DNA of 64,000 nt from Patescibacteria group bacterium (GTDB taxonomy: Bacteria > Patescibacteriota > Microgenomatia > Levybacterales > UBA12049), in contig JBGTMH010000045.1 in the NCBI GenBank assembly GCA_041743715.1, forward strand, positions 18,092 through 82,091. The letters run 5' to 3'. A program made the position numbers and the translations under genes. The notes under the pieces are model-generated. The model was not told where the DNA came from and did not search any database. It saw nothing but the letters and a program-made list of their open reading frames with translations. Shown here piece after piece: positions 75 through 20,214 of the stretch. Within the stretch, counting starts at the first letter, position 1, and each line of letters opens with the position of its first letter.

Positions 75-103
75 TTGACCCCTCGAACCTGAAGTTTTAT
101 AAT
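75..103 (+). promoter_or_regulatory. sigma70-type promoter TTGACC-17 nt-TATAAT upstream of the phosphoketolase gene
   Basis: TTGACC at 75-80, exactly 17-nt spacer, TATAAT at 98-103. The -10 box overlaps the first ATG (102), so the in-frame ATG at 117 is the more likely start. Confidence 0.55.
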
Positions 104-2879
104 GCAAGATACTGCTATGGATAAAGCGATTGAGAACATACGAAAATATGTCAGGGCTGCGAATTATCTTTCTGTTACGCAGATTTATCTTCAAGATAAC
201 TTTCTCTTGCATCGTGCTCTGAAACCAACGGACATCAAACCCAAACTTTTCGGTCACTGGGGGACGTGTCCGGGGATTAATTTTGTCTATGGACACCTGA
301 ACTATTTAGTCAAAAAGCATCAGCAGTCTACAATTTTTGTGTTGGGTCCCGGGCACGGGATGCCGGGGTTACAGGCAAATTTATTCCTTGAGGGAACGCT
401 CCAGAAATATTATCCGCAAGCGACACGAGACGCAAAAGGTATTGGGTATATCTCGAAGATGTTTGCCTGGCCATATGGATTCTCAAGTCACGCGACTCCT
501 GAGGCTCCGGGGACGATACTTGAGGGAGGAGAGTTGGGGTATTCTTTGGCATCTGCTTATGGGGCGATTCTTGATAATCCTGATTTACTAGCTGTTACGT
601 TGATCGGTGATGGGGAAGCTGAAACAGGTGCCATCGCTGCAGCGTGGCATATTAATAAATTGATTGATCCGGCAACCAATGGCGCAGTTTTGCCGATTCT
701 CCATGTTAATGGATATAAAATTTCAGGACCGACAATTTTTGGCCGGATGAGTAATAAAGAATTAGAAGACTTATTCAGCGGGTATGGATACGAGCCGTTT
801 TTTGTGGAAGGCGAAAATATTGATGTACAGATGTTCACGACACTGGAAAAATGTTACCAAACCATAAAAGGAATCCAATCGACTGCACGTGAGAATCCAA
901 ATGCTTATAAACCCCGCTTCCCGATGATTGTTATGCGGACACCAAAGGGGATGACGACTGTGAAAGAATTGCGGGGGATAAAGATTGAAGGCACGATACT
1001 TGCGCATCAAGTCGTTATGCCAACAGTCCGTGGCGATGATCAGGAATTACATGCTCTCGAGGAGTGGCTTCGTTCCTATCATTTCGAAGAATTATTTGAT
1101 ACGGAAAAAGGGTTTGAAGACGCGATCTTGGATGTCATTCCACAGGACAGCCTTCTTATTGGAGATAATCGTGACGTCTTGGGTGGAACATATAAACCAC
1201 TTGTGCTTCCTGAGACAAAAAAATTGGCCAAACCTGTTGCTATGCCTGGAAAAGTTCAATCAAATGCCCTGCGTATGTCAGGTACCTATTTGAAAGAAAT
1301 CTTTCGTCTCAATAGTGAACAAAAGAATTTCCGACTTATGTCTCCTGATGAAACCTATTCAAATCGTCTGGACGAAGTTTTCCAAGTAACATCTCGAGGA
1401 TGGGTTTGGCCACATGATCCACAAGATCGTGATATCACCAGAGACGGAAGAGTCATGGAAATCCTTTCAGAGCACAATATGCATGGGCTGGCGCAGGGGT
1501 ATGTGTTGACCGGACGCCATGCTGTTTTTACCACCTATGAAGCATTCGCCCAAATCTTCTCAAGCATGGCACATATGTATCAGAAGTTTCTCAAATACGT
1601 ACGCAAGATGCCATGGCGGGAGGATATTGCATCGATGAATTATTTGTTAACTTCAACGGCTTGGCGGCAAGAGCACAATGGGTATTCTCATCAAAATCCG
1701 AGCTTTGTCTCAGGTATGCTGGAAAAACACAATGACTTCATAAAAGCATATTTCCCAGTAGATGATAACAGCATGCTTGCAGTGATGGAAGAGACGATGT
1801 CCTCCAAAAATCAAATGAATATTATCACTGCTGGTAAAACACCTGAGCCCCGATGGTTGACATATGAGCAAGCGAAAGAAACGTTAAAGACCGGTCTTCT
1901 GACGTGGGATTTTGCGAGTGATGAAAATCCTCATGTGGTATTGGTCGGAATCGGGGACTATGTTACCAAAGAAGCGCTTGCAGCGGTTGAATTAATTAAA
2001 AAAGACGCACCTGAAATTCGAGTACGCTTTGTGAATATCGCCCGTCTGCAAGCAGCCTGTTCCTGCGTTGGAGAGTTTCATCCACAACTTCCTGATGCTG
2101 AACGCCATTTTACTGTAGACAAACCGGTCATTATTAATTTCCACGGGTATCCCGAAGTGATGCAAGCGATGCTGACACACGTGAAGAATCCTGGACGTTT
2201 CTCAGTTCATGGGTATGTAGAAGAAGGTGGGACAACGACGCCGTTTGATATGCAGGTGAGAAATAAAACAGACCGTTATCATCTGGCAATTGAAGTATTG
2301 TATATAATGGAAAAAAATGGAATAGTAACGAGTGAAAAAGCACAAGAATTACAAGAGCAGTACAAAAAAGCATTGAACGATCATTATTCATATGTTACCG
2401 AAAACGGTGCTGATCCTATAGAGATTGAACAATGGCAATGGGATGGCGTTGTACCTGAAACAAATGTCGCGAGGGGTGTTGATCACGAAACAGTATTAAA
2501 AAATGCCCGCACGATTGCTTTTGTGGGACTATCAGATAAGCCAGAGCGGCACAGTCACAAAGTTGCAAAATATTTCCAGAAGAAAGGATACCGAGTTATC
2601 CCCGTTAACCCGAAGTTACAGGAAGTACTGGGCGAAAAATCTTATGCCAGCATAACGGAAATTCCAGGAGATATTCATATAGACATCGTCGATATCTTCC
2701 GCAAACCAACCGAAGTCATCCCCCACATGCAAGAAATTGTCGAGCGGGGCAACATAAGAACAGTCTGGCTCGCTGACGGAGTCAATACACACGAAGCCGA
2801 AGATTTCGCCGAAGACTATGGCCTTTCTCTCGTGACTAACTACTGTATCCTCGATGCGTATAAGGATATGCAGAAGTAG
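102..2879 (+). CDS. xfp: Xylulose-5-P/fructose-6-P phosphoketolase fused to a C-terminal CoA-binding (YccU/CoA_binding_2-like) domain
   Basis: 925-aa ORF. N-terminal ~790 aa is typical XFP (RAANYLSVTQIYLQDN, GHWGTCPG, EGGELGYS, GDGEAETG). The last ~135 aa (ARTIAFVGLSDKPERHSHKVAKYFQKKGYRVIPVNP...) match the small CoA-binding protein family. Likely true start is ATG 117. Confidence 0.9.
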   Translation: MQDTAMDKAIENIRKYVRAANYLSVTQIYLQDNFLLHRALKPTDIKPKLFGHWGTCPGINFVYGHLNYLVKKHQQSTIFVLGPGHGMPGLQANLFLEGTLQKYYPQATRDAKGIGYISKMFAWPYGFSSHATPEAPGTILEGGELGYSLASAYGAILDNPDLLAVTLIGDGEAETGAIAAAWHINKLIDPATNGAVLPILHVNGYKISGPTIFGRMSNKELEDLFSGYGYEPFFVEGENIDVQMFTTLEKCYQTIKGIQSTARENPNAYKPRFPMIVMRTPKGMTTVKELRGIKIEGTILAHQVVMPTVRGDDQELHALEEWLRSYHFEELFDTEKGFEDAILDVIPQDSLLIGDNRDVLGGTYKPLVLPETKKLAKPVAMPGKVQSNALRMSGTYLKEIFRLNSEQKNFRLMSPDETYSNRLDEVFQVTSRGWVWPHDPQDRDITRDGRVMEILSEHNMHGLAQGYVLTGRHAVFTTYEAFAQIFSSMAHMYQKFLKYVRKMPWREDIASMNYLLTSTAWRQEHNGYSHQNPSFVSGMLEKHNDFIKAYFPVDDNSMLAVMEETMSSKNQMNIITAGKTPEPRWLTYEQAKETLKTGLLTWDFASDENPHVVLVGIGDYVTKEALAAVELIKKDAPEIRVRFVNIARLQAACSCVGEFHPQLPDAERHFTVDKPVIINFHGYPEVMQAMLTHVKNPGRFSVHGYVEEGGTTTPFDMQVRNKTDRYHLAIEVLYIMEKNGIVTSEKAQELQEQYKKALNDHYSYVTENGADPIEIEQWQWDGVVPETNVARGVDHETVLKNARTIAFVGLSDKPERHSHKVAKYFQKKGYRVIPVNPKLQEVLGEKSYASITEIPGDIHIDIVDIFRKPTEVIPHMQEIVERGNIRTVWLADGVNTHEAEDFAEDYGLSLVTNYCILDAYKDMQK

Positions 2880-8024: not shown

Positions 8025-10166
8025 TTAATATTTGAAGATTTGGAAAAGGTTGCTGTAGTCATCTGTCCAGAGTTTTATGTCTGTTCTACTTGGCTTGTCC
8101 TTTTTTGCTTTGTTAAGTGCTGAGGTCGTAAGTAATGATTTATCAGCCGCGAGAAACGCCCATTTGGAACGTGACTGCATATCATTTGCAGGAGGCACAT
8201 CGATAAAAATAACATGCATCTTGTGATATTGCGCAGCTTTTTGGATGACAGGAATGAGATCAAGATAGGTATTTGAAATATGGACCGCGATAATACTCTC
8301 CTTTGCAAGATGTGCTTTATAGAGTGCAAATGCTTCTTTGGTCAGCAGATGTACGGGGATTGCGTCATCGTTAAATGCATCCACGATAAAGAGATGATAG
8401 TTCTGCTTGTTATTTTCTTTGAGTTCTTTTTCCATTGAAAGCCTTCCATCACCGACAACATTTGTCACTTTTGCAGGTGTGTTGGCAAGATAGGTAAAAT
8501 GTGTCTTTGCCAGTTCTACATCTAACGGATTTAATTCATAAAATTTGATAGTATCTCCCTCTTGTCCATATGCTGCGATTGTCCCAACACCCAGTCCGAT
8601 AACACCAATCTGTAGTGGAGTCGTTTTTTCGCGAACACTATCGACAGCAAGTCCGATACTCTTTTCTCCAAAATATGTTGTCGGTTTCATCTTTTGTGAC
8701 TCAGCCAAGGGTTGGCAACCATGGATAATTTTGCCATTGAGTAGGCATCGGGTATCGGTTTTTTCTTGCTGCATTATTCGGAGTGTACCGTAGGAATTTC
8801 TCCAAACGCCAACTGAATTATTTGTTTGTTCAAGAAATAAGGCTATGGAAATGATTCCAAAAAAGAAACTGACAACAGCGATAAGAAAGACGGTCATTTC
8901 TTTTTGGGACCGGAGACCAAAATCAAGTCGGCGGTACAGAAATGAATTTTTATACTTGATAAGCACAAGGACTGCAATAAGCGTTGTTAAAAATAACCCA
9001 AGCAAGAATTCCCAAAAGAGTCCAATAAAAAAAATCGGCGCGATAATCGCGACAATTAATGCTCCTACCACACTGCCGAAAGCCATTACTAAGTAAAAGG
9101 CATTTATGTCTTTTGTTGGGGGTCTCGTGGCAAAAAGTTCACCGTGACACACCATAAAACAGCTGAAAAGCATAATGGTATACAAAACAAGCTCGACAAA
9201 AATGCTCAGTGCAGGCGGCTGGGTCAGAAGGGCTAGGACTACAGGAATAGTCAGAAGAAAACAATACGCGTAGAGATTCCGTTTGTAAAAAGATCGCTCA
9301 CTAAAGCATAGGATAAAAGAAAGAAGATATAATCCGAGCGGCAGAAGCCAAAGAAACGGAATCGGGGCGATACCCTGTGTCAATTGATGTGTTCCAGCAA
9401 GAAGCATGAGTGATGAGACTGCGGGAAGAAAGAGCCAGAGTCTATACTGTGTCATCCCGACCGAGTCCGCAGACGAGTGGAGGGATCTTTTCAACTGTGC
9501 CGCTTGTGGTGAGAAGATTCCTCGACTCCTTTCAGTCGCTCGGAATGACAAATAAGTACAAAATACAAGTAATAAACATAAAATAATAAAAATAAGTGAC
9601 CAAATCTGTCCTTGGTTTTGTAATGAAAGAAAGGGTTCGATAAAAAAAGGATAACTAATAATTGCCAACAGGGAGCCCGCATTGGAAAGAGCATAGAGTG
9701 GATAAGGAGATTTTTTATGAGGAAGTACACTGAACCATTTTTGTAAAAGCGTGCTGGTTGTGGAGAGAAGAAAATATGGTAGCCCGACACTTATCAGTAA
9801 GATAGCAAGTACCTGGATTACCGGTGCGTATGTCTCAGGAAGTTTTAGTTCAACTCCTGGTGTAATAGGTGAGTTCCAATGTGAAAATAAAAGCACCGTA
9901 ATAATGACAATTGTCACAACTAATGTACTATGAAGCAAGAGCTGCTGTCTTAATGAGAATTTTGTGAGCAGATACGCGTACAAGTAACCCGCCAAAAGCA
10001 GGGTTTGAAAAAATAACAGTGAGGTTATCCAAACAAACGATGTTCCACCAAACCATGGAAGAATATATTTTCCGATGAGCGGTTGGACTTGGAAGAGCAG
10101 AAAAGCGCTGAGGAAGATGGTTACTGAAAAACTGATGAAGTAGAGAAGCGAATGGTTGTATTTCAT
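8025..10166 (-). CDS. Polytopic membrane domain fused to a spermidine-synthase-like (class I methyltransferase fold) domain
   Basis: 713 aa. About 450 aa of TM helices, then VIGLGVGTIAAYGQEGDTIKFYELNP...LFIVDAFNDDAIPVHLLTKEAF, a spermidine synthase family signature. Confidence 0.75.
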   Translation of the reverse strand: MKYNHSLLYFISFSVTIFLSAFLLFQVQPLIGKYILPWFGGTSFVWITSLLFFQTLLLAGYLYAYLLTKFSLRQQLLLHSTLVVTIVIITVLLFSHWNSPITPGVELKLPETYAPVIQVLAILLISVGLPYFLLSTTSTLLQKWFSVLPHKKSPYPLYALSNAGSLLAIISYPFFIEPFLSLQNQGQIWSLIFIILCLLLVFCTYLSFRATERSRGIFSPQAAQLKRSLHSSADSVGMTQYRLWLFLPAVSSLMLLAGTHQLTQGIAPIPFLWLLPLGLYLLSFILCFSERSFYKRNLYAYCFLLTIPVVLALLTQPPALSIFVELVLYTIMLFSCFMVCHGELFATRPPTKDINAFYLVMAFGSVVGALIVAIIAPIFFIGLFWEFLLGLFLTTLIAVLVLIKYKNSFLYRRLDFGLRSQKEMTVFLIAVVSFFFGIISIALFLEQTNNSVGVWRNSYGTLRIMQQEKTDTRCLLNGKIIHGCQPLAESQKMKPTTYFGEKSIGLAVDSVREKTTPLQIGVIGLGVGTIAAYGQEGDTIKFYELNPLDVELAKTHFTYLANTPAKVTNVVGDGRLSMEKELKENNKQNYHLFIVDAFNDDAIPVHLLTKEAFALYKAHLAKESIIAVHISNTYLDLIPVIQKAAQYHKMHVIFIDVPPANDMQSRSKWAFLAADKSLLTTSALNKAKKDKPSRTDIKLWTDDYSNLFQIFKY
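9451..9549. repeat. 99-bp nested palindromic element (GTCATCCCGACCGAG...GTCGCTCGGAATGAC) inside the coding sequence
   Basis: Outer arms 9451-9465 / 9535-9549 pair at 12 of 15 positions. Inner arms 9475-9492 / 9511-9528 pair at 15 of 18. 99 bp is 33 codons, read through as LSFRATERSRGIFSPQAAQLKRSLHSSADSVGMT between TM helices. Confidence 0.7.
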
Positions 10167-11333: not shown

Positions 11334-12656
11334 ATGCAAAGAGTTGATAGAAGTGAGTCAAGAAATGGTGTTTCGCCAGATCGTGCAACATTAAAAAGTT
11401 TGACACTACCATTTCACAGAGAACGGCTTATTGCAATAACAACTGAATATCCAACACCAGTTTATCTCTACGATGAAGCAGGAATAAGAGCAAGCGCACG
11501 AAGATTAATCGATGCTTTTTCTTGGGTAAAAGATGGAAGAGGTGGGGGATTTAAGAATTTTTTTGCAGTGAAGGCTACCCCAAATCCTGCAATATTGGGA
11601 ATTCTGAGAGAGGAAGGTCTTGGTGCAGATTGTAGTTCACTTCCCGAGCTGATGCTTGCTGAGCGCTCAGGGATAGTCGGTGAAGATATCATGTTCACTT
11701 CAAATAATACTCCAGCGGAAGAATTTGTAGCAGCAAGAAGATTAGGTGGAATCATAAATCTTGATGATATTAGTCATATTTCATTTTTAGAAAGACATGC
11801 TGGGATACCACCAGTAATTAGTTTTCGTTATAATCCTGGTCCTCTGCGTGAAGGAAATGTAATTATCGGAAATCCAGAAGAAGCAAAATATGGTTTGACG
11901 AGAGAACAGATTTTTGATGCATATGAAATTATGAAGGGAAAAGGTGTACGAAGATTTGGTTTGCATACAATGGTTGCGTCTAATGAACTAGACCCCCAAT
12001 ATTTTGTAGAGACGGCAAAAATGCTTTTTGAATTAGTCGGGGACTTGAGTGAGCGTGGAATTAACATGGAGTTTGTCAATTTAGGCGGGGGTATTGGAAT
12101 TCCATACAAACCAGAACAAGAGCCAGTAGATGTTGAAGCAATTTCAGCTGGAGTGAAAGAGGCATATGATGAACTAATTGTGGCAAGAGACTTAGATCCA
12201 CTGGGAATCACGATGGAATGCGGAAGATATATTACCGGCCCTCATGGTTTTCTTGTCGCTAAAGCGATACATAAGAAAGATATTTATAGGAAATATGTCG
12301 GGGTTGATGCAAGTATGGCAAACCTTATGCGTCCAGGTATGTATGGTGCATATCATCATATCACTATTCCTGGAAAAGAACGTGCTCCACGAGATCGTAC
12401 TTATGATGTAACTGGAGGGCTGTGTGAGAATAACGATAAGTTTGGGGTTCAAAGAGATTTACCGGAAATACAGATTGGGGATTTTGTTGTCATTCATGAT
12501 GCAGGCGCGCATGGGCATTCAATGGGTTTTAACTATAACGGCAAACTGCGTTCCGCTGAGGTCTTACTTCGACCTGATGGGAGTACTCAGCTTATAAGAA
12601 GAGCTGAAACAATCGCTGATCATTTCACGACCTTAGTTTTTGATGGAGCACAGTAG
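11334..12656 (+). CDS. lysA: Diaminopimelate decarboxylase (PLP, Orn/DAP/Arg decarboxylase fold)
   Basis: PTPVYLYDE, FAVKATPNP (PLP-binding Lys), GGGIGIPY, GGLCENNDKF. The operon context with the dap genes supports lysA over other family members. Confidence 0.8.
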   Translation: MQRVDRSESRNGVSPDRATLKSLTLPFHRERLIAITTEYPTPVYLYDEAGIRASARRLIDAFSWVKDGRGGGFKNFFAVKATPNPAILGILREEGLGADCSSLPELMLAERSGIVGEDIMFTSNNTPAEEFVAARRLGGIINLDDISHISFLERHAGIPPVISFRYNPGPLREGNVIIGNPEEAKYGLTREQIFDAYEIMKGKGVRRFGLHTMVASNELDPQYFVETAKMLFELVGDLSERGINMEFVNLGGGIGIPYKPEQEPVDVEAISAGVKEAYDELIVARDLDPLGITMECGRYITGPHGFLVAKAIHKKDIYRKYVGVDASMANLMRPGMYGAYHHITIPGKERAPRDRTYDVTGGLCENNDKFGVQRDLPEIQIGDFVVIHDAGAHGHSMGFNYNGKLRSAEVLLRPDGSTQLIRRAETIADHFTTLVFDGAQ

Positions 12657-12678
12657 GTTATCTTTAGTGGCTAATACT

Positions 12679-13902
12679 ATGGCAAAAATTAATAAAAATT
12701 TTAAAAAATTACAAAAAAACTATCTATTTATAGATATTGCAAAGCGGACAAAAGCGTTTATAGAAGCAAATCCCGGTGTTACGGTTTTGCGTCTTGGTAT
12801 CGGTGATACAACCGAACCCATTCCGCCAGTTGTCATAGCCGGTATGCACGCAGGTGTTGAGAAATTATCAAAAAGAGAAACGTACACAGGGTATGACGAC
12901 AATCTCGGAAATCCGCGGCTTAAGCAGGCTTTTGTGGATTGGTATCAACAGCGCGGCGTTTCCCTTGATACATCGGAAATTTGTATTGGGGATGGAGGAA
13001 AACCTGATAGTGGAAATATTCAATCAATTTTTTCTCCCAAAAACATCATTGCCGTTTCTGATCCTGTTTATCCGGTATATGTTGACAGTAATGTTATAGC
13101 TGGAAGAACTGGAACCTATGCAAACGGAAAATATAAAGGAGTTGTCTATATGCCCCTCACAAGTAAAAATAATTTCATCCCCAAAGTACCTGATGTAAAA
13201 GTAGATTTGATTTATTTATGCAGTCCAAATAATCCGACCGGAGGAGTGATGAGTAAAAAAGATCTTGAGCGGTTTGTGAAATATGCCAGGAAAAACAAAT
13301 CAGTCATTATCTTCGACTCCGCCTACTCAATGTATATAAAAGATAGCGATTTGCCGAGAAGTATTTATGAAATTGAAGGAGCAAAATCTTGCGCGATAGA
13401 AATCAGCAGTTTTTCAAAATGGGCTGGATTCACAGGGGTGCGGCTGGGGTGGACGATTGTCCCAAAAGAATTGGTCTCAGAAGATTCGGAGAAAGGGGAA
13501 TTACATGCGATGTGGTTCCGTCGACAGACGACTATGTTTAATGGCGCATCAAATATTGCTCAAGAAGGCGGCATAGCTGTTTTGTCAAAACAAGGGCAGA
13601 AGCAGTGTCAGCAACTGGTTGATTATTATATGGGAAATGCACAGTTAATTAGAAATACATTTTTAAAATTAGGATTCACTGTCTATGGAGGAGAAAATGC
13701 GCCGTATATTTGGCTTAAAACACCGACTGGTTATAGCTCTTGGGAATTTTTTGATAAAGTACTCAGTGAGACTCATATCGTCGGAACACCTGGATCAGGA
13801 TTCGGCAGTTGTGGAGAGGGATATTTCAGACTCTCAGCATTTGGAAAGAGGGAGAATATTGAGAAAGCGGTTAAAAGTATACAGAAGAATTTAAAACTAT
13901 GA
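12679..13902 (+). CDS. dapL: LL-diaminopimelate aminotransferase
   Basis: N-terminus MAKINKNFKKLQKNYLFIDIAKR is DapL-typical. Also SFSKWAGFTGVRLGW (PLP-binding Lys) and CSPNNPTG. Start taken at ATG 12679 rather than the ORF-track start 12640. Confidence 0.85.
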   Translation: MAKINKNFKKLQKNYLFIDIAKRTKAFIEANPGVTVLRLGIGDTTEPIPPVVIAGMHAGVEKLSKRETYTGYDDNLGNPRLKQAFVDWYQQRGVSLDTSEICIGDGGKPDSGNIQSIFSPKNIIAVSDPVYPVYVDSNVIAGRTGTYANGKYKGVVYMPLTSKNNFIPKVPDVKVDLIYLCSPNNPTGGVMSKKDLERFVKYARKNKSVIIFDSAYSMYIKDSDLPRSIYEIEGAKSCAIEISSFSKWAGFTGVRLGWTIVPKELVSEDSEKGELHAMWFRRQTTMFNGASNIAQEGGIAVLSKQGQKQCQQLVDYYMGNAQLIRNTFLKLGFTVYGGENAPYIWLKTPTGYSSWEFFDKVLSETHIVGTPGSGFGSCGEGYFRLSAFGKRENIEKAVKSIQKNLKL

Positions 13903-15242
13903 TTATCGCTAAATTTGGTGGGACATCGGTGAGTACAAAAGAGCGGTTTGAGACAATTTGTCAGATAGTTCTGAAAGAAAAAGAGAGACAGCCAGTTGTT
14001 GTTGTGTCCGCGATTCGTGGTATTACAGATCTATTGTTAGCATCTGTTGATGCTTCGTCTCAAGAAAGGAAATCAATTTTTAATCAGATCGAGAAGATGC
14101 ATATGGATCTTGTCCGGGCTTTTTGGAAAAAGCAGGATGTGACAGATATCGAAATATATCTGAAAAAATGTTTGCAGCAATTGGAGCATTTGTTAACAAA
14201 AAAAGAAAGAAGCAAGGCACTTTCTGATGAAATTGTCTCTTTTGGTGAGATGCTTTCTTCTTATGTAATTAGTAAAGCCCTTGAGACAAAAGGTTTTCGT
14301 TCGCAGCAGGTCGTTGCGACTGAGTTGATTGTTACTAATGTTGAATTCGGTGCTGCTGAATTTTTGCCAAAAGAAACTGTGCAAAAATCGAAAAAAGTTA
14401 TCATGCCATTGATCGAGAAAGGGATTATTCCGGTTGTTACCGGGTTTATCGGTAGTACCAAAGATGGACGAATTACAACGCTAGGAAGAGGTGGTTCAGA
14501 TTATAGTGCTGCTGTTTTGGGGTTTGCATTGCAGGCTGAGGAAATTCAAATTTGGACTGATGTTGATGGTATATTTACGACTGATCCACGGTATTTTAAA
14601 GATGCTTTTGTTTTGTCACATGTGTCGTATAAGGAAGCATCAGAGCTTGCTTCCTTTGGAGGAAAAGTTCTTCATCCACGGACAATTCGTCCGGCGATAC
14701 ATGCTGGGATTCCGGTTCGTGTACTGAATACACTTAATCCGGCTTTTCAAGGAACGCTGATTACAGAAAAGCCACTACAGACTTCTCATATTGCAGCAAT
14801 TGCTTCAAAACGAAAAATAACGCTTGTGAATTTATACTCGACAGAGATGTTATTTAGCAAAGGATTTTTAGCTCGTGTCTTTACTGTTTTTGCAAAACAT
14901 AATATTTCAGTGGACCTTGTCAGTGTCTCTGAGGTAAGCGTTTCTGTAACACTTGATAACGATGAGAACTTAAAAGATGCTACTTGCGAATTAGAGAAAT
15001 TTACTGCGGTGACAACGGATGATAAATATGGTATGGTTTCACTTATCGGTGACGGAATAGTCAGCGTTAAAAATATTATGAGAAATATTTTTTCGATTCT
15101 TGAACAGTTCCATATAGAAGTCAAAATGATATCACTTGGAGCAACAGACATTAATATTAGCTTAGTTATTCCAACAGTACAGGTTGACGAAGCAGTTTCA
15201 GTTTTGCATAGAACAATGGTTGTCAGGAAAGGATACATATGA
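13899..15242 (+). CDS. lysC: Aspartate kinase
   Basis: IIAKFGGTSV, GRGGSDYSAA, IWTDVDGIFTTDPR, plus C-terminal ACT-like repeats. ATGA overlap with dapL. Confidence 0.9.
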   Translation: MIIAKFGGTSVSTKERFETICQIVLKEKERQPVVVVSAIRGITDLLLASVDASSQERKSIFNQIEKMHMDLVRAFWKKQDVTDIEIYLKKCLQQLEHLLTKKERSKALSDEIVSFGEMLSSYVISKALETKGFRSQQVVATELIVTNVEFGAAEFLPKETVQKSKKVIMPLIEKGIIPVVTGFIGSTKDGRITTLGRGGSDYSAAVLGFALQAEEIQIWTDVDGIFTTDPRYFKDAFVLSHVSYKEASELASFGGKVLHPRTIRPAIHAGIPVRVLNTLNPAFQGTLITEKPLQTSHIAAIASKRKITLVNLYSTEMLFSKGFLARVFTVFAKHNISVDLVSVSEVSVSVTLDNDENLKDATCELEKFTAVTTDDKYGMVSLIGDGIVSVKNIMRNIFSILEQFHIEVKMISLGATDINISLVIPTVQVDEAVSVLHRTMVVRKGYI

Positions 15243-15982
15243 AAATCGCACTGATTGGTTATGGAAAAGTTGGAAAAGAAATAGAGCGGATTGTTGCAGA
15301 AAGCAAAGAGCACTCGATTGTTTCAGTCAGTAATACAAAAAGCAAAGGATTGGATAAAGCGGGATTACGAAAAGCGGATGTGGCAATTGATTTTACAACT
15401 CCTGACGTTGTTCTCCAAAATATTAGTGAAGTCTTGTCAATGAAAATACCAATGGTTATTGGAACAACTGGATGGTACGATCAACTGCCAACAGTCGAAA
15501 AACTTGTCAAAGAAACGAAAACAGGATGTATCTACGGACCGAATTTTTCGATTGGTGTGAATATCTTTTTTAATATCGTTGAGCATGCAGCGAGTCTCGT
15601 TAAGCGATTTGATGGATATGATGTTTTTGGGATAGAGACGCATCATACAAGTAAAAAAGATAGCCCGAGCGGTACTGCACGGAAACTGTCAGATATTATA
15701 CTAGAGAATTATCCTCGTAAAAAAACACTGCAAACAGAAACGCTTAATCGACCGATTCGATCAGACGAATTACATCTAGTTTCAGTTCGGGGGGGGCGGA
15801 GTTTTGGTAAACATGAAATTACGTTTGACAGCCAATCAGATGAAATACAATTGGTTCATCAGTCTTGGGGAAGAAGAGGATTTGCCGAAGGGGCGCTGAT
15901 CGCTGCGAAGTTTATCGAAAATAAAAAAGGACTTTATAATTTTAGTGATATTTTTGCAAAGGAATGGGGTGAAAACATATGA
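15239..15982 (+). CDS. dapB: 4-hydroxy-tetrahydrodipicolinate reductase
   Basis: MKIALIGYGKVGKEI, GIETHHTSKKDSPSGTA (DapB E-x-HH-x-K-D-APSGTA motif). ATGA overlap with lysC. Confidence 0.9.
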   Translation: MKIALIGYGKVGKEIERIVAESKEHSIVSVSNTKSKGLDKAGLRKADVAIDFTTPDVVLQNISEVLSMKIPMVIGTTGWYDQLPTVEKLVKETKTGCIYGPNFSIGVNIFFNIVEHAASLVKRFDGYDVFGIETHHTSKKDSPSGTARKLSDIILENYPRKKTLQTETLNRPIRSDELHLVSVRGGRSFGKHEITFDSQSDEIQLVHQSWGRRGFAEGALIAAKFIENKKGLYNFSDIFAKEWGENI

Positions 15983-16863
15983 AAAAAATTACTGGAGCAT
16001 TAACAGCGGTTGTTACACCATTTGAAACAGATGGAAATGTTGATGTGAAAGCCTTAAAAAAACTTGTACAGTTTCAAATAAAAAACGGCATTGCAGGTAT
16101 TGTCCCTTGTGGATCGACAGGTGAAGCGGCAACACTGACTCTTGAGGAGTATCGATTGGTTGTCGAAACTGTTGTCAAAGAAGTAGCAGGTCAAGTATAC
16201 GTTATCGCAGGTGCGACACATAATGATACAAGTCGTGCAATCGAACTTTCTATAATCGCCAAAAAAGCCGGCGCTGATGGTCTTTTGCATGCAACGCCTT
16301 ATTACAATAAACCAACCCTCACAGGACTGATTGCTCACTATAAAGCAATTGCAGCAAACGCAAATTTGCCTATTATTCTTTACAATGTCCCCGGAAGAAC
16401 AGGACTTAATTTGACTTCCGATATGACATTAACACTTGCAAAAGAAATATCGCATGTTGTGGGAATAAAAGAAGCATCAGCAAATATTGTGCAAATAATG
16501 GATGTTATCAAACGTGCACCAACCGACTTTTCTATTCTTTCAGGTGACGACGCGTTTACGTTTTCCATTATGGCACTTGGAGGACACGGTATTATTTCTG
16601 TTGCTGCAAACGAGATTCCAAAAGAAATTGCAGCCCTAACAACGGCAGCTTTAGAAGGCGATTGGAAAAAAGCGAGAAAAATCCATTATGAATGGCTTGA
16701 TTTAATGCATATTAATTTCATTGAATCAAACCCACAGCCTGTAAAAACTGCGCTCTTTTTGATGGGGAAAATAAAGGAAGTTTTTCGTTTACCACTTGTT
16801 CCTATGCAAGATAAAAGCAAAGAAACGCTGAAAAAAGTTTTGAAAGGACATAATCTCACATGA
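15979..16863 (+). CDS. dapA: 4-hydroxy-tetrahydrodipicolinate synthase
   Basis: GSTGEAATLT, YNKPT, YNVPGRTG, GIKEASAN (Schiff-base Lys). ATGA overlap on both sides. Confidence 0.9.
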   Translation: MKKITGALTAVVTPFETDGNVDVKALKKLVQFQIKNGIAGIVPCGSTGEAATLTLEEYRLVVETVVKEVAGQVYVIAGATHNDTSRAIELSIIAKKAGADGLLHATPYYNKPTLTGLIAHYKAIAANANLPIILYNVPGRTGLNLTSDMTLTLAKEISHVVGIKEASANIVQIMDVIKRAPTDFSILSGDDAFTFSIMALGGHGIISVAANEIPKEIAALTTAALEGDWKKARKIHYEWLDLMHINFIESNPQPVKTALFLMGKIKEVFRLPLVPMQDKSKETLKKVLKGHNLT

Positions 16864-17936
16864 AAAAAATACCAGTCGGCATTTTAGGAGCAACTGGTAT
16901 GGTGGGGCAGAGGTTTGTACAACTTCTGTCCGATCATCCGTGGTTTGCTGTAAAAGTAGTAGCAGCATCACCCAGATCAGCAGGCATACCGTATAAAGAT
17001 GCGGTTTCAAATAAATGGATTTCAGAACTCCCTATCCCAAAGGAAGTCGCTGAGATGAAAATACTGGCTGTGGAAGATGATATTGATTCCATATGTCAAA
17101 GCGTCCGTCTTGTATTTTCTGCACTTGATTTGGATAAAGAAAAAATTAAGAAGATTGAAGAAGATTATGCTGCTCGTGGGGTATTTGTTGTCACGAATAA
17201 TTCAGCTCATCGGTGGACTGAGGACGTGCCGTTGATACTGCCGGAAATAAACCCGCATCTTTTAAAAATTATAGCAAGTCAGCGAAAGAAGCGGGGATGG
17301 AAGGATGGGGGAATAATTGCGAAATCAAATTGTTCTATACAATCGTACGTATCCGTTCTTGAAGCATTTAAAACATTTGAACCGATAGAAATTATTGTTA
17401 CGAAAATACAAGCGATTTCAGGAGCAGGAAAAACGTTTGCGACTTGGCCCGAAATGGTTGACAATGTTATTCCTTATATCGCTGGTGAAGAAGAAAAAAG
17501 TGAAAGAGAACCACTGAAAGTTTGGGGGACTATTAAAAATGGGAAAATTCAATCTGCAAAACTACCATTTATTTCAGCAACTTGTCTTCGAATCGCTGTA
17601 TCAGATGGCCATATGGCATCAGTAAGTGTAAAATTTAGAAAAAAGCCAACACAGAAAGATTTGATTGCAGCCATCAAACACTATAAAAATCCAATAGCAA
17701 AATTCAACTTACCATCGGCTCCCAAAGAGTTCTTAAAATATTTTGAAGAAGAGGATAGACCCCAGACAAAGTTAGATCGTGAATCTGGGAATGGGATGAC
17801 TGTAAGTGTGGGCAGGATACGCGAAGATCATGTTTTAGATTATAAATTTGTAGCGCTTTCTCATAACACAATCCGAGGAGCAGCTGGAGGCGCTGTCTTG
17901 GCAGCAGAACTTCTCAAAGTAGAGGGCTATTTATAA
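16860..17936 (+). CDS. asd: Aspartate-semialdehyde dehydrogenase
   Basis: GILGATGMVGQRF, KSNCSIQ (active-site Cys), SHNTIRGAAGGAV. Confidence 0.9.
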   Translation: MKKIPVGILGATGMVGQRFVQLLSDHPWFAVKVVAASPRSAGIPYKDAVSNKWISELPIPKEVAEMKILAVEDDIDSICQSVRLVFSALDLDKEKIKKIEEDYAARGVFVVTNNSAHRWTEDVPLILPEINPHLLKIIASQRKKRGWKDGGIIAKSNCSIQSYVSVLEAFKTFEPIEIIVTKIQAISGAGKTFATWPEMVDNVIPYIAGEEEKSEREPLKVWGTIKNGKIQSAKLPFISATCLRIAVSDGHMASVSVKFRKKPTQKDLIAAIKHYKNPIAKFNLPSAPKEFLKYFEEEDRPQTKLDRESGNGMTVSVGRIREDHVLDYKFVALSHNTIRGAAGGAVLAAELLKVEGYL

Positions 17937-17976: not shown

Positions 17977-20214
17977 ATGTTTTGGGCGGATGAACTACTA
18001 AAAAAGAGAAAAGGAAAAGAGTGGGTGAATGATGCATGGACACCGTCAGGCATTGTTCATATGGGTGGTTTAAAGGGACCTGTAATTCATGATGTTCTTT
18101 ATAAAATCCTCAAGGAGCAGCAAAAAGATGTGACGTATACTTTTGGTTTTGATGATTTTGATCCGATAGACGGATTACCTCCAAGTCTTCAAGAATCTCA
18201 CAAAGCATATATGGGTATCCCAACATTTTTGGCGCCGTCGCCTGACGGTAATGGAACATTTGCAGATTTTTATGGCAATAAAATGCGAGCCATGTTTAAG
18301 GCAGTCGGAATCGAGACGACTATCTATCTGGCATCAGTTAATTATAAAAAAGGTGTCTACAACGATGGCATTAAAATAATGCTTGATGGTGTCAAAAAGG
18401 TCCGTCAGGTTTATGAAGAGATGTATAAAAAATCTGTGAAGAATGATTGGTACCCACTACAAGTAATATGTCCGAAGTGCGGAAAACTGGGAACAACCAA
18501 AGTAACTGATTGGGATGGAAAGGTCGTGACTTTTACTTGTATGTCTGATCTTGTCACGTGGGCTAAGGGGTGTGAATATACCGGAAAGATTTCTCCATTT
18601 GACGGGAATGCAAAGATGCCTTGGAAACCTGAGTGGTCGGTTAAATGGTATACATTCAAAGTAACAATTGAAGGTGCTGGAAAAGATCATATGTCTGCAG
18701 GGGGGTCGTTTGAAATTGCTGCAAATATCCTCAAAGCTGTCTTTAATCAAGAACCACCTATGGAATTACCATATGAATTTTTTCTTTGGAACGGAAAAAA
18801 AATGTCTTCCTCAAAAGGGCTCGGGTTAACAGCGGAAGAGCTGTTAGAAGTTTTGCCCCCGCAGTTGGTTAGGTTTTTAATGATCAAAACTGAACCAAAT
18901 CGAGCAGTAGAATTTAATCCTAAAGGCACAGATATCATCCCAAAACTATTTGATGAATACCAAAAAGCAGCAGATGCATATTTCAAGAACGGAGATAAAG
19001 ATTTAGCGAGAGTATTTGAATTGTCACAAATTGAAAAAATAAAAAAGCCACCAGTTGTCCGCTTTTCTGTTCTCGCCCAGTGGGTGCAGATGCCAAATAT
19101 GCAGCAGAAAATTACAGAGGAAGGGCTTGAAGAATGGGCAAAGTATGCGAGAGCTTGGTTAGAAAACTATGCCCCGGATTCAGAGAAGTTTTTCGTTCAG
19201 AAAGACTTACCAGAAGCTGCCAAGGATCTAACGAATCAACAAAAAGTGCTTTTACAAAAGATAGCAGCGGAGCTAAACAAGGACTGGGATGCAGAAGCAT
19301 TCCAAACGAGACTATATGATATTGGAAAAGAAGTAGGTCTCAATGGCAAAGAAACATTTACTGCGATTTACAAGGTTTTGATTGGGAAAGATCACGGACC
19401 CAAAGCTGCATGGTTAATTTTGTCGTTGGACAAAGAGTTTGTTAAAGAACGATTTGAAGAGGCTGCAAAAGAGAATCAAGAATCAGGAAGCAAGAATCAA
19501 GATGTATTTTTAGTTACTCGTTTGAATAAACCGGAAATTTTTTCTCTGAACTCGAAGGTTAAAGAGAAATATCCTTCAATATCAATCGGTATTGCAGTTA
19601 TTAAAGGAGTTACTGTCGAAAAAACACATCCATCGCTCGAGGAGGAAAAAGAAAAATTGCTTACATCATTGGAAGGTTTCACCACTGAGCAACTCGGTCA
19701 GAATCCTGAAATTATTAGTTATCGAAAGCTCTACAAAGAGATGGGAGTTGATTGGCATTCTCGCAGACCAAGCCCCGAAGCGCTACTTCGACGGGTTGCA
19801 CTCCACAAAGGATTGTACACCATTAATACATGCGTTGATGCATACAATCTTGTTGTTATGAAACGCAGAGTTTCAGTCGGTGCATTTGATTTCGATACAA
19901 TCGAATTTCCCACTGAACTTCGTTTTGCAAAATCAGGCGCAGAAATTTTACTTCTCGGCGATACAACACCTACGAAATACAAACCAACAGAGCTCGCGTA
20001 TTCTGACCAAAAAGGCGGATATAATATCGACTTTAATTTCCGCGACACGAAACGTACTGCTGTAAATCTTGAAACAAAAAATGTCTATATCAATGTCGAT
20101 GGTGTGTACGACATTACATCTGAAGAAGTAGAAAAAGTTTTGCGAGAAGCATGTGATGCAATATTAAAATATTGTGGCGGAAGTCTTGAAACATTTGGAG
20201 TAGAAGAAGTATAG
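17977..20214 (+). CDS. lysK: Class I lysine--tRNA ligase with a C-terminal B3/4-like (PheRS-beta editing-domain-like) extension
   Basis: The first ~505 aa are class I LysRS (PSGIVHMGGLKG, zinc knuckle CPKCGK, KMSSSKG). The region from aa ~509 to 745 (YRKLYKEMGVDWHSRRPSPEALLRRVALHKGLYTINTCVDAYNLVVMKRRVSVGAFDFD) matches stand-alone B3/4 domain proteins. Confidence 0.85.
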   Translation: MFWADELLKKRKGKEWVNDAWTPSGIVHMGGLKGPVIHDVLYKILKEQQKDVTYTFGFDDFDPIDGLPPSLQESHKAYMGIPTFLAPSPDGNGTFADFYGNKMRAMFKAVGIETTIYLASVNYKKGVYNDGIKIMLDGVKKVRQVYEEMYKKSVKNDWYPLQVICPKCGKLGTTKVTDWDGKVVTFTCMSDLVTWAKGCEYTGKISPFDGNAKMPWKPEWSVKWYTFKVTIEGAGKDHMSAGGSFEIAANILKAVFNQEPPMELPYEFFLWNGKKMSSSKGLGLTAEELLEVLPPQLVRFLMIKTEPNRAVEFNPKGTDIIPKLFDEYQKAADAYFKNGDKDLARVFELSQIEKIKKPPVVRFSVLAQWVQMPNMQQKITEEGLEEWAKYARAWLENYAPDSEKFFVQKDLPEAAKDLTNQQKVLLQKIAAELNKDWDAEAFQTRLYDIGKEVGLNGKETFTAIYKVLIGKDHGPKAAWLILSLDKEFVKERFEEAAKENQESGSKNQDVFLVTRLNKPEIFSLNSKVKEKYPSISIGIAVIKGVTVEKTHPSLEEEKEKLLTSLEGFTTEQLGQNPEIISYRKLYKEMGVDWHSRRPSPEALLRRVALHKGLYTINTCVDAYNLVVMKRRVSVGAFDFDTIEFPTELRFAKSGAEILLLGDTTPTKYKPTELAYSDQKGGYNIDFNFRDTKRTAVNLETKNVYINVDGVYDITSEEVEKVLREACDAILKYCGGSLETFGVEEV

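What the first reader, a model, noticed from the sequence alone, without database searches (positions are those of the whole stretch)
19501..20214. Class I LysRS carries a C-terminal B3/4 (PheRS-beta editing-like) domain
After the complete class I LysRS body and a short linker (KENQESGSKNQ), about 235 aa follow with the hallmark of stand-alone B3/4 domain proteins: ISYRKLYKEMGVDWHSRRPSPEALLRRVALHKGLYTINTCVDAYNLVVMKRRVSVGAFDFD...LRFA..GAEILLLGD. In PheRS this fold is the post-transfer editing site. Fused to LysRS it could provide tRNA binding or editing of near-cognate products, for example ornithine or homocysteine-type misactivation, which is speculative. I am not aware of this architecture being characterised.
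Basis: partly seen in the sequence, partly recalled or inferred. Interest (0 to 1): 0.55.

Follow-up and report, generated by a model that had tools for sequence, protein, structure and literature searches.

The report
LysRS with tethered CtdA-like editing module
This candidate-phyla bacterium's lysine-charging enzyme carries a complete, highly conserved copy of a tRNA "proofreading" enzyme on a flexible tether, and closely related copies sit on the unrelated second type of lysine-charging enzyme in related bacteria; this points to an undescribed error-correction step for lysine, which textbooks say has none after the amino acid is loaded.

Summary
Window 17977-20214 (+) is one uninterrupted 745-aa ORF made of four parts:
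- a class I LysRS (TIGR00467, 336 bits)
- a disordered, hypervariable linker
- a 230-aa module that passes Pfam B3_4 (76 bits; cutoff 29.3)

The module is a whole CtdA-type stand-alone aminoacyl-tRNA deacylase unit, not just a PheRS-beta B3/4 look-alike. Its AF2 model (pLDDT 94) best matches canavanyl-tRNA(Arg) deacylase 9mkl/9f7e (TM 0.76-0.80).

The fusion is the usual LysRS of Microgenomates-type Patescibacteria: 202 GTDB species genomes hold a relative, and the 80 best are all full-length. The module is more conserved than the synthetase body (0.72 vs 0.56-0.62 mean identity).

Modules of the same clade (up to 70% identical) sit on the C-terminus of non-homologous class II LysRS, and they also occur alone. 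More distant modules are fused to ArgRS, where they carry the CtdA pocket signature, and to TyrRS and MetRS.

The catalytic and CCA-rim residues are kept. The side-chain pocket is distinct (N-G-F-N-D-N, deep-end D708).

Best reading: a tethered post-transfer editing deacylase for mischarged tRNA-Lys. The substrate is unknown and is probably a cationic lysine look-alike. No activity is shown. I found no paper describing this architecture.

The parts
17977..19032 (+). Class I LysRS catalytic (Rossmann) domain, aa 1-352, including the HIGH-type motif region (H28) and KMSSSKG (K275-G281).
   Evidence: Pfam tRNA-synt_1f at aa 4-352, E 4.7e-83. TIGR00467 at 336 bits. K275, M276, S279, K280 and G281 and four Cys (165, 168, 188, 199) are invariant in 46 homologues.
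19033..19470 (+). Alpha-helical anticodon-binding domain of class I LysRS, aa 353-498.
   Evidence: Pfam Anticodon_2 at aa 404-496. The helical AF2 model has pLDDT of about 80-93 here.
19471..19515 (+). Flexible linker, about aa 499-513 (ENQESGSKNQDVFLV).
   Evidence: AF2 residues 500-511 have pLDDT <50. Mean pairwise identity is 0.22 with no invariant column, and length varies from 18 to 41 residues among 46 homologues. A class II homologue is split into two genes exactly inside its linker (L003).
19516..20211 (+). CtdA-like B3/4 module, aa 514-745: the putative aminoacyl-tRNA deacylase. The Pfam B3_4 core is aa 582-734 (nt 19720-20178).
   Evidence: PF03483 at 76-80 bits. AF2 pLDDT 94, pTM 0.91. 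Foldseek best hits are CtdA 9mkl/9f7e, TM 0.76-0.80, E about 1e-13 to 1e-14. Mean pairwise identity is 0.72, with 29% invariant columns.
19750..19812 (+). Invariant DWHSRRPSPEALLRR motif (aa 592-606), which includes the basic pair R605/R606: the putative CCA-end binding rim.
   Evidence: Invariant in 46 K1 fusions. R605/R606 align with CtdA K86/R87, part of the positively charged cavity entrance proposed to bind CCA-3' (bioRxiv 10.1101/2024.11.30.626143).
19843..20100 (+). Span holding the predicted aminoacyl-pocket residues: Y623, N624, G635, F637, Y675, D677, N683, D685, F686, R689, D690, N706, D708.
   Evidence: One-to-one alignment with CtdA Y104, N105, G116, E118, W158, D160, C166, R168, W169, R172, Q173, I189, E191, and with E. 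coli PheRS-beta N254, H265, F267, A312, G318, E334. Each is 72-100% conserved in the Lys clade.
20212..20214 (+). Stop codon of the fusion gene.

Best explanation
The gene encodes a working class I lysyl-tRNA synthetase. Its C-terminus carries, on a disordered tether of about 15-20 residues, a complete CtdA-type (B3/4-fold) aminoacyl-tRNA deacylase.

Proposed mechanism:
1. LysRS occasionally loads a non-cognate amino acid onto tRNA-Lys.
2. The tethered module captures the aminoacylated CCA end on its basic rim (R597, R605, R606, R689).
3. The aminoacyl group enters a pocket built from Y623, N624, G635, F637, Y675, D677, N683, D685, F686, D690, N706 and D708.
4. The ester bond is hydrolysed by the substrate-assisted/water-positioning chemistry proposed for PheRS-beta and CtdA (N624 = PheRS N254 = CtdA N105). 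Lys-tRNA-Lys is rejected.

The same module works on class I LysRS, on class II LysRS at either end, as a split gene, and alone. It therefore behaves as a tethered trans-editing factor, kept at high local concentration next to its substrate source, and not as an integrated CCA-flipping domain.

The pocket keeps aromatic walls and one deep-end acid (D708), plus D690 and D685, but lacks the second acid (CtdA E118 is F here) that CtdA needs to hold a guanidinium. The most likely substrates are therefore amino acids with a single terminal amine or a polar side chain: lysine look-alikes such as ornithine, or thia-, oxa- or hydroxy-lysine.

Shown: architecture, fold, conservation, distribution, and the pocket mapping. 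Inferred: hydrolytic activity, tRNA-Lys as target, and substrate class.
For: (1) Fold and homology to a proven deacylase. The best PDB matches are CtdA 9mkl/9f7e over the whole 235-residue unit, followed by PheRS-beta editing domains. CtdA is an experimentally shown Can-tRNA(Arg) deacylase (PMC10018355, PMC12449066).

(2) Catalytic and junction residues are kept. Y623/N624, G635, D677, R689 and R606 are 84-100% conserved. They equal CtdA Y104/N105, G116, D160, R172 and R87, of which Y104, N105, G116, E118, E191 and Q173 were probed by mutagenesis.

(3) Purifying selection is stronger on the module than on the essential synthetase: 0.72 (core 0.77) vs 0.56/0.62 mean identity, and 29-39% vs 13-14% invariant columns.

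(4) The module follows lysine, not the enzyme fold. In an NJ tree, one clade holds 50/51 class-I-fused and 19/20 class-II-C-fused modules, with no ArgRS-, TyrRS- or CtdA-type sequence. P0125 and P0225 are 70% and 57% identical to our module yet sit on bodies that pass the class II lysS model (10/10 above cutoff).

(5) Calibration. ArgRS-fused modules cluster with CtdA and carry its pocket (E118, C166, E/Q173, E191). Fusion partner and pocket chemistry therefore match in the one case where the substrate is known.

(6) The module has its own partner-specific pocket signature, shared by K1-fused, K2-fused and solo members of the clade.

(7) Co-occurring domains elsewhere are tRNA-related: tRNA_bind and DUF2000.

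(8) There is a need. Class II LysRS mischarges tRNA-Lys with several amino acids and has no post-transfer editing (PMC4173786).
Against: No biochemical data exist for any member of this clade. The pocket differs from both characterised relatives at 4 of 6 specificity positions, so activity cannot be transferred by homology alone. A close relative (P0108/L004, 82% identical, syntenic) has a 496-aa LysRS with no module, so the module is not essential to the synthetase. The relative orientation of the two domains is not predicted with confidence (pTM 0.64), so no cis channel between the active sites can be claimed. Mis-charging by class I LysRS has not been documented in the literature I could read. 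The tree is a quick NJ tree without support values and includes fragments. Three independent class II fusions (P0346, P0276, P0284) carry a CtdA-like pocket rather than the Lys-clade pocket, so 'LysRS partner' does not fix a single pocket chemistry.
Confidence: 0.6

Rival explanations
1. The module is a catalytically silent tRNA-binding appendage. It raises the affinity or selectivity of LysRS for tRNA-Lys, as Trbp111/EMAPII-type domains do in other synthetases, and hydrolyses nothing.
For: The B3/4 fold is annotated as a tRNA-binding domain. A conserved basic rim is present (R597, R605, R606, R689). A flexible tether is typical of appended tRNA-binding domains. Class I LysRS needs tRNA even for amino-acid activation (PMC7373986), so extra tRNA affinity could pay off.
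Against: The strongest conservation lies in buried pocket residues rather than only on the surface rim. This includes the Asn equivalent to the water-positioning Asn of PheRS/CtdA and the Gly whose replacement inactivates CtdA. A partner-specific pocket signature would not be expected for a generic RNA binder. Some homologues add a separate tRNA_bind domain next to the module (P0235, P0254), which would be redundant. Stand-alone copies exist away from any lysS (L002).
Confidence: 0.15
2. The module is a deacylase, but its target is not a product of LysRS. It clears some other mischarged tRNA (for example an arginine-analogue-charged tRNA-Arg, as CtdA does, or D- or non-protein aminoacyl-tRNAs in general) and is fused to LysRS only for co-expression or ribosome/tRNA proximity.
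For: CtdA acts in trans with no synthetase contact (PMC12449066). The tether and the stand-alone copies show that the module does not need LysRS. Some class II LysRS fusions carry a CtdA-type pocket (P0346, P0276, P0284).
Against: The clade is found on two unrelated LysRS types but on no other synthetase. ArgRS-, TyrRS- and MetRS-fused modules belong to other branches with other pockets. The essential CtdA residue E118 and the conserved C166 are replaced (F, N).
Confidence: 0.15
3. The module uses or regulates correctly charged Lys-tRNA-Lys. Examples would be controlled hydrolysis that tunes the charged pool, or handing lysine to another acceptor, by analogy with LysX, where LysRS is fused to a Lys-tRNA-consuming lipid lysyl-transferase.
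For: There is precedent for a LysRS fused to a Lys-tRNA-using enzyme: the bifunctional LysX model NF002821 appears. The pocket has aromatic walls plus one deep acidic residue, which could fit lysine itself. In this window the gene ends a lysine-biosynthesis operon.
Against: The B3/4 fold is only known as a hydrolase of wrong aminoacyl-tRNAs. Futile hydrolysis of the enzyme's own product would be costly in organisms with very small genomes. The operon linkage is not general (4 of 82 loci).
Confidence: 0.07
4. Artefact: two neighbouring genes were joined by an assembly or sequencing error.
For: None found. Single interrupted examples exist in other organisms (L001 in-frame TGA; L003 frameshift or split in the linker).
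Against: The frame is open in the window. 80 of 80 best GTDB loci and more than 100 protein clusters from independent samples show the same continuous ORF.
Confidence: 0.01

Closest known systems
CtdA, canavanyl-tRNA(Arg) deacylase (stand-alone B3/4 protein; PDB 9f7e, 9mkl; PMC10018355, PMC12449066, bioRxiv 10.1101/2024.11.30.626143)
   Same: It has the same complete fold, including the helical insert that forms the cavity entrance (TM 0.76-0.80 over about 235 columns), and the same size (about 230 aa). The ribose-junction Tyr-Asn, the pocket Gly, D160, R172 and the K86/R87 basic pair are conserved. Stand-alone members of our clade exist (L002).
   Different: Sequence identity is only 16-23%. 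The specificity residues differ: E118->F, C166->N, R168->D, Q173->D, I189->N, E191->D. Our module is covalently tethered to LysRS and falls in a separate tree clade. The substrate is therefore not expected to be canavanine.
PheRS beta-subunit B3/B4 editing domain (for example E. coli 3pco/6oz5, T. thermophilus 1pys)
   Same: It shares the B3/4 core fold (TMq about 0.6) and gives the best plain sequence hit (3pco_B, E 1e-3). It shares the A-F-D motif (F637 = F267) and the Asn (N624 = N254). It is also a cis-acting post-transfer editing site within a synthetase polypeptide.
   Different: PheRS residues H265, A312, G318 and E334 are G, N, D and N here. Our module has a different helical insert topology (CtdA type). 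It has no B1/B2/B5 neighbours and is not packed into a multi-domain enzyme; it hangs on a disordered linker. The partner is LysRS, not PheRS.
Canonical LysRS (class I, e.g. P. horikoshii 1IRX; class II, e.g. E. coli LysS)
   Same: The synthetase body is an ordinary class I LysRS by HMM, motifs and predicted fold.
   Different: Known LysRS enzymes have no post-transfer editing domain. [quoted passage not shown] This protein adds a candidate one.
Appended or free editing modules shared between synthetases and trans-factors (AlaX/AlaRS/ThrRS, INS/YbaK/ProXp with ProRS)
   Same: The evolutionary logic is the same: one hydrolase fold occurs both free and fused, at either terminus, on several synthetases (AARS Online, PMC11580382). 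Here the fold is found on LysRS-I, LysRS-II, ArgRS, TyrRS and MetRS.
   Different: The fold is different (B3/4). Until now it was known in cis only in PheRS and in trans only as CtdA.

Membership tests
Class I lysyl-tRNA synthetase (TIGR00467 / PF01921) | The whole-protein HMM score is above the curated cutoff. | tested here: met
   TIGR00467 scores 336 bits vs 147.55. PF01921 scores 279.5 bits vs 27.
Class I lysyl-tRNA synthetase (TIGR00467 / PF01921) | Class I signature motifs (HIGH-type, KMSKS-type) and an alpha-helical GluRS-like anticodon-binding domain are present. | tested here: met
   KMSSSKG (aa 275-281) and H28/H38 are invariant or nearly so in 46 homologues. Anticodon_2 covers 404-496.
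Class I lysyl-tRNA synthetase (TIGR00467 / PF01921) | The enzyme has lysylation activity on tRNA-Lys. | not testable with these tools
   This needs an enzyme assay. No second lysS and no tRNA gene lies in the 64-kb window.
Pfam B3_4 domain (PF03483) | The HMM score is above the gathering threshold. | tested here: met
   76.4 bits in the full protein and 80.5 bits in the module alone, vs 29.3.
CtdA family (canavanyl-tRNA(Arg) deacylase) | The protein has the full stand-alone B3/B4 fold with the CtdA-type helical insert. | tested here: met
   Foldseek TM 0.76-0.80, 234-235 aligned columns, E 3e-14 to 1.5e-13 against 9mkl/9f7e, using a model with pLDDT 94.
CtdA family (canavanyl-tRNA(Arg) deacylase) | Conserved pocket residues N105, G116, E118, C166, Q/E173, I189 and E191 are present. 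E118, E191, G116 and Q173 are required for activity, and C166 is strictly conserved. | tested here: not met
   Only N105 and G116 are kept. E118->F637, C166->N683, Q173->D690, I189->N706, E191->D708 (requirements). It is therefore CtdA-like in fold but not a CtdA orthologue.
CtdA family (canavanyl-tRNA(Arg) deacylase) | The sequence groups phylogenetically with characterised CtdA. | tested here: not met
   The NJ tree places CtdA with the ArgRS-fused modules and places our module in a separate 121-leaf clade. The tree has no support values.
CtdA family (canavanyl-tRNA(Arg) deacylase) | The protein hydrolyses Can-tRNA(Arg). | not testable with these tools
   This needs a deacylation assay.
PheRS beta-subunit editing domain | Editing-site residues (E. 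coli R244, N254, Y255, H265, F267, A312, G318, E334) are present. | tested here: not met
   Only N254 (N624) and F267 (F637) match. R244->Y614, H265->G635, A312->N683, G318->D690, E334->N706.
PheRS beta-subunit editing domain | The domain sits in a PheRS-beta context (B1/B2, B5, B6-7, B8 domains). | tested here: not met
   TIGR00472 scores 19-23 bits vs cutoff 402.65 and matches only positions 231-337.
Post-transfer editing domains of aminoacyl-tRNA synthetases (functional class) | There is a separate hydrolytic site in the same polypeptide as the synthetic site, and it clears mischarged cognate tRNA. | tested here: inconclusive
   A separate domain of a hydrolase fold with a conserved pocket is shown. 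Hydrolysis and tRNA-Lys targeting are inferred only.

The most novel reading that the evidence does not exclude
This is the first post-transfer editing domain of any lysyl-tRNA synthetase. A lysine-dedicated clade of CtdA-like deacylases has been attached to both evolutionarily unrelated LysRS classes (and also works alone or as a split gene). It protects the lysine codons of Patescibacteria against a naturally occurring lysine look-alike, such as ornithine or a thia-, oxa- or hydroxy-lysine antimetabolite. More broadly, the CtdA/B3-4 fold would be a general plug-in proofreading cassette whose pocket is retuned to the partner synthetase (LysRS, ArgRS, TyrRS, MetRS).
Probability: 0.5. Interest if true: 0.78.

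Novelty: new variant of a known kind. Interest (0 to 1): 0.66.

Why it matters
LysRS is the textbook example of a synthetase that exists in two unrelated classes, and neither class is known to proofread after transfer. A dedicated editing module that tracks lysine across both classes would have four consequences:
- It would add a missing quality-control step to the genetic-code machinery.
- It would provide a natural experiment showing that editing modules are selected by amino acid and tRNA, not by synthetase architecture.
- It would point to an unrecognised lysine-like toxic metabolite in the habitats or hosts of ultra-small, host-dependent bacteria.
- It would supply compact (230-aa), portable deacylases with new specificities for genetic-code engineering.

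The idea is directly testable with standard deacylation assays.

Tried and rejected
1. Link to lysine biosynthesis. In the window, lysS is the last gene of a lysA/DapL-like/lysC/dapB/dapA/asd operon. The one close relative without the module also lacks the operon. This suggested a pathway intermediate such as DAP as the substrate. It is rejected as a general rule: only 4 of 82 loci have the operon next to lysS, and L005 (77% identical) keeps the module without it.

2. Genetic code 25 in L001. I first read the in-frame TGA at the invariant Gly of the class II LysRS as UGA=Gly. This is rejected because 5 of 10 genes in that locus end in TGA. It is a substitution or error, and uninterrupted class II fusions exist anyway.

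3. Regulatory RNAs. There are no Rfam matches (lysine riboswitch, T-box) in the whole window. Promoter and terminator scans are at chance level, apart from one good terminator between murB and lysA.

4. tRNA-Lys peculiarities. There are no tRNA genes in the window.

5. Taxonomic names for the class II, ArgRS, TyrRS and MetRS fusions. The cluster look-up returned no names.

6. Literature. No paper in the searchable library describes LysRS with a B3/4 domain. The three CtdA papers do not mention fusions.

7. Domain docking. The full-length AF2 model gives confident domains but pTM of only 0.64 and a disordered tether, so I draw no conclusion on a cis channel.

8. An early local classification run used a wrong reference record for the class II body. 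It was redone.
Full report
1. THE OBSERVATION

The window holds one uninterrupted ORF at 17977..20214 (+), 745 aa. The finding's range, 19501-20214, corresponds to aa 509-745 plus the stop codon, and the quoted peptides are present.

Pfam finds three domains:
- tRNA-synt_1f at aa 4-352 (E 4.7e-83)
- Anticodon_2 at aa 404-496
- B3_4 at aa 582-734 (E 2.7e-21; 76.4 bits against a gathering score of 29.3; 80.5 bits for the C-terminal part alone)

NCBIfam's class I lysS equivalog TIGR00467 scores 336 bits against a cutoff of 147.55.

2. IT IS NOT A ONE-OFF OR AN ARTEFACT

- Nearly all of the 120 best protein clusters (56-80% identity) are 740-770 aa long and carry both PF01921 and PF03483.
- A scan of one genome per GTDB species found 202 genomes encoding a relative. 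The best 80 all match query residues 1-742/745 in one stretch.
- Those records are titled Levy-, Gottesman-, Davies- and Dojkabacteria, Microgenomates and Patescibacteria, plus some bulk-labelled MAGs.

The fusion is therefore the normal LysRS of this candidate-phyla-radiation lineage. Sources annotate it simply as 'lysine--tRNA ligase'.

3. ANATOMY

AlphaFold2 on a 46-sequence alignment gives a confident synthetase body and a confident C-terminal domain. They are joined by a segment (aa 500-511) with pLDDT below 50. Overall pLDDT is 88 but pTM only 0.64, so the mutual orientation of the domains is undetermined.

Conservation across the 46 homologues:

| Region | Mean pairwise identity | Invariant columns |
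|---|---|---|
| Catalytic domain | 0.56 | 14% |
| Anticodon-binding domain | 0.62 | 13% |
| Linker (18-41 residues long) | 0.22 | 0% |
| Module | 0.72 | 29% |
| Module core (aa 582-734) | 0.77 | 39% |

The appended domain is thus under tighter constraint than the essential enzyme that carries it.

4. WHAT THE MODULE IS

Folded alone, the module gives pLDDT 94 and pTM 0.91.
- Its best PDB matches are the two crystal structures of CtdA, the stand-alone canavanyl-tRNA(Arg) deacylase: 9mkl and 9f7e, TM 0.76-0.80 over 234-235 columns, E 3e-14 to 1.5e-13.
- After them come about 30 PheRS-beta chains at TMq about 0.6.
- Sequence search of the PDB gives the same three groups weakly.

CtdA is an experimentally characterised trans-editing enzyme of the B3/B4 fold (PMC10018355; PMC12449066; bioRxiv 10.1101/2024.11.30.626143). 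The module is therefore a whole CtdA-type unit, including the helical insert that shapes the cavity entrance. It is not merely a PheRS B3/4 fragment.

5. THE DECISIVE COMPARATIVE RESULT

An exhaustive HMMER search with the module found 1786 cluster representatives at E<=1e-3. I classified the listed proteins locally, with NCBIfam and with Pfam. The module occurs in six settings:

(i) After class I LysRS.

(ii) After class II LysRS. Examples are P0225, P0228, P0233, P0234, P0237, P0244 and P0247. Ten of the ten tested pass the lysS model NF001756, at 497-653 bits vs a cutoff of 468.

(iii) Before class II LysRS (P0276, P0310).

(iv) Alone. P0160 in L002 has no lysS within 6 kb.

(v) As a separate gene overlapping the end of a complete class II lysS, with the break exactly in the linker (L003).

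(vi) More distantly, before ArgRS (six representatives, one with two modules), before TyrRS, and inside MetRS.

In an NJ tree of 197 modules, one clade contains 50 of 51 class-I-fused and 19 of 20 class-II-C-fused modules, interleaved. It contains no ArgRS-, TyrRS-, N-terminal-LysRS-II- or CtdA-type sequence. Class-II-fused modules reach 70% identity to ours (P0125) although the two synthetase bodies are not homologous at all. A partial class II fusion is from a Gottesmanbacteria MAG (P0138), and GTDB Gottesmanbacteria also have class I fusions. The module therefore follows lysine/tRNA-Lys, not a particular synthetase scaffold.

6. CALIBRATION OF THE LOGIC

Five of the six ArgRS-fused modules cluster with CtdA. 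They carry its pocket signature, E118, C166, E/Q173 and E191, in 83-100% of sequences. In the one case where the substrate of the free enzyme is known (an arginine analogue), the fused partner is the matching synthetase. That supports reading the Lys clade as serving LysRS.

7. THE POCKET

Six positions line the aminoacyl site in both characterised relatives, and they align one-to-one with our module:

| Protein | Pos. 1 | Pos. 2 | Pos. 3 | Pos. 4 | Pos. 5 | Pos. 6 |
|---|---|---|---|---|---|---|
| CtdA | N105 | G116 | E118 | C166 | Q173 | I189 |
| E. coli PheRS-beta | N254 | H265 | F267 | A312 | G318 | E334 |
| This module | N624 | G635 | F637 | N683 | D690 | N706 |

Kept family-wide:
- the ribose-junction Tyr-Asn (Y623/N624)
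- G635 (G116H and G116W inactivate CtdA)
- D677 and R689
- the basic pair R605/R606, equal to K86/R87 of the rim proposed to bind CCA

Changed, and shared by the K1-fused, K2-fused and solo members of the clade (63-100% conserved):
- E118->F
- C166->N
- R168->D
- Q173->D
- I189->N
- E191->D708

CtdA needs both deep-end acids, E118 and E191, for its guanidinium ligand. The Lys clade keeps only one (D708), between aromatic walls (Y675, F686). My inference is a substrate with a single terminal amine or a polar group, that is, a lysine look-alike rather than an arginine analogue. This step is inference only.

8. MECHANISM PROPOSED

The module is a tethered trans-editing factor.
1. LysRS releases or presents the aminoacylated CCA end.
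2. The module, held nearby by a floppy linker, binds it on its basic rim.
3. It hydrolyses non-cognate esters and spares Lys-tRNA-Lys.

The mixture of C-terminal, N-terminal, split and free arrangements, on a class I enzyme and a class II enzyme, argues against a fixed CCA-swinging geometry (inference).

The need is plausible. [quoted passage not shown] Only pre-transfer cyclisation of Hcy/Hse/Orn is known (PMC7373986).

9. CAVEATS

- No activity is shown for any clade member.
- A syntenic relative 82% identical in the body lacks the module entirely (P0108/L004), so the module is dispensable in some genomes.
- Three independently fused class II LysRS modules carry a CtdA-like pocket.
- The tree lacks support values.

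10. CONTEXT AND DISCARDED LEADS

In the window, lysS is the last gene of a lysA/aminotransferase/lysC/dapB/dapA/asd operon. There is no terminator in the 40-nt gap before it. This linkage holds in only 4 of 82 loci, so it does not explain the module. The window has no tRNA genes and no Rfam matches. My first reading of L001 as a code-25 genome was wrong.

11. NOVELTY

The fold, the CtdA family and cis-editing domains are all known. A B3/4 editing-type module on LysRS, of either class, is not described in any paper I could search. I rate it a new variant of a known kind, of solid interest to the synthetase field and directly testable.

Noticed in passing
window 11334-17936 (+), upstream of the finding: A compact lysine-biosynthesis operon runs into lysS: a lysA-like PLP decarboxylase (11334-12656), a class I/II aminotransferase, possibly DapL (12640-13902), aspartokinase with ACT domains (13899-15242), dapB (15239-15982), dapA (15979-16863) and asd (16860-17936). 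Gene starts overlap and there is no terminator before lysS. No dapF lies in the cluster. Only 4 of 82 related loci share this arrangement.
   Followed up: yes
L004 5001-6491 (Logan SRR30654423 contig, P0108): A close relative (82% identical, same murB...IMPase-Ham1-PEGA-UbiA synteny) has a 496-aa class I LysRS that ends right after the anticodon-binding domain, with no module. This is a clean natural deletion or pre-fusion state. Whether that genome has a free module elsewhere is unknown.
   Followed up: partly
proteins P0295, P0297, P0301, P0307, P0323, P0350 (not in the window): ArgRS enzymes of 870-1120 aa carry an N-terminal CtdA-like module. P0301 has two in tandem. The modules carry the CtdA pocket signature (E118, C166, E/Q173, E191) and cluster with CtdA, so they look like canavanyl-tRNA(Arg) deacylases built into ArgRS in cis. 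The CtdA papers I read do not mention this.
   Followed up: partly
proteins P0334, P0344 (TyrRS) and P0332, P0352 (MetRS): B3/4 modules are also fused N-terminally to TyrRS and inserted between the anticodon domain and the tRNA_bind domain of MetRS. Their pockets differ again (H or Y at the E118 position, Q at the Q173 position). Substrates are unknown.
   Followed up: no
proteins P0346, P0276, P0284 (class II LysRS fusions outside the Lys clade): Three class II LysRS proteins, one C-terminal and two N-terminal fusions, carry modules with a CtdA-like acidic pocket (E/D118, C166, E173, E191) rather than the Lys-clade pocket. This may be relevant to the reported mischarging of tRNA-Lys with arginine by class II LysRS.
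   Followed up: no
proteins P0230, P0211, P0235, P0254, P0110: Some relatives have further domains attached to the module: DUF2000 after the module (P0230, P0211); a tRNA_bind domain before or after it (P0235, P0254); an HD domain at the C-terminus (P0235). P0110, a 959-aa class I fusion, has an HDVD-containing tail of about 200 aa with no Pfam hit.
   Followed up: partly
L001 4695-4697 and L003 5351-5364: In L001, a class II LysRS-module gene is interrupted by one in-frame TGA exactly at the invariant Gly of the EYG.PP motif. It is probably a GGA>TGA change or error, because TGA is a normal stop in that locus. In L003, the class II lysS and the module are separate overlapping genes, broken inside the linker, and the module has its own ATG.
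   Followed up: yes
window 102-2879 (+): A 925-aa phosphoketolase (XFP_N/XFP/XFP_C) carries a C-terminal CoA_binding_2 domain (aa 803-917), an architecture I did not look into.
   Followed up: no
window 8028-10166 (-) and 38436-41330 (+): Two large ORFs (713 and 964 aa) have no Pfam match at E<=1e-5. The 1432-aa ORF at 41377-45675 was not examined.
   Followed up: no
whole window 1-64000: There are no tRNA or tmRNA genes (ARAGORN) and no Rfam family at gathering score anywhere in the 64 kb.
   Followed up: yes
literature, PMC3766115: Stand-alone COG3382 (B3/4) genes of Clostridiaceae were listed in 2013 as members of the ykkC riboswitch regulon. My own knowledge: this riboswitch is now known as guanidine-sensing. 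That fits the later discovery that such proteins handle canavanine.
   Followed up: no
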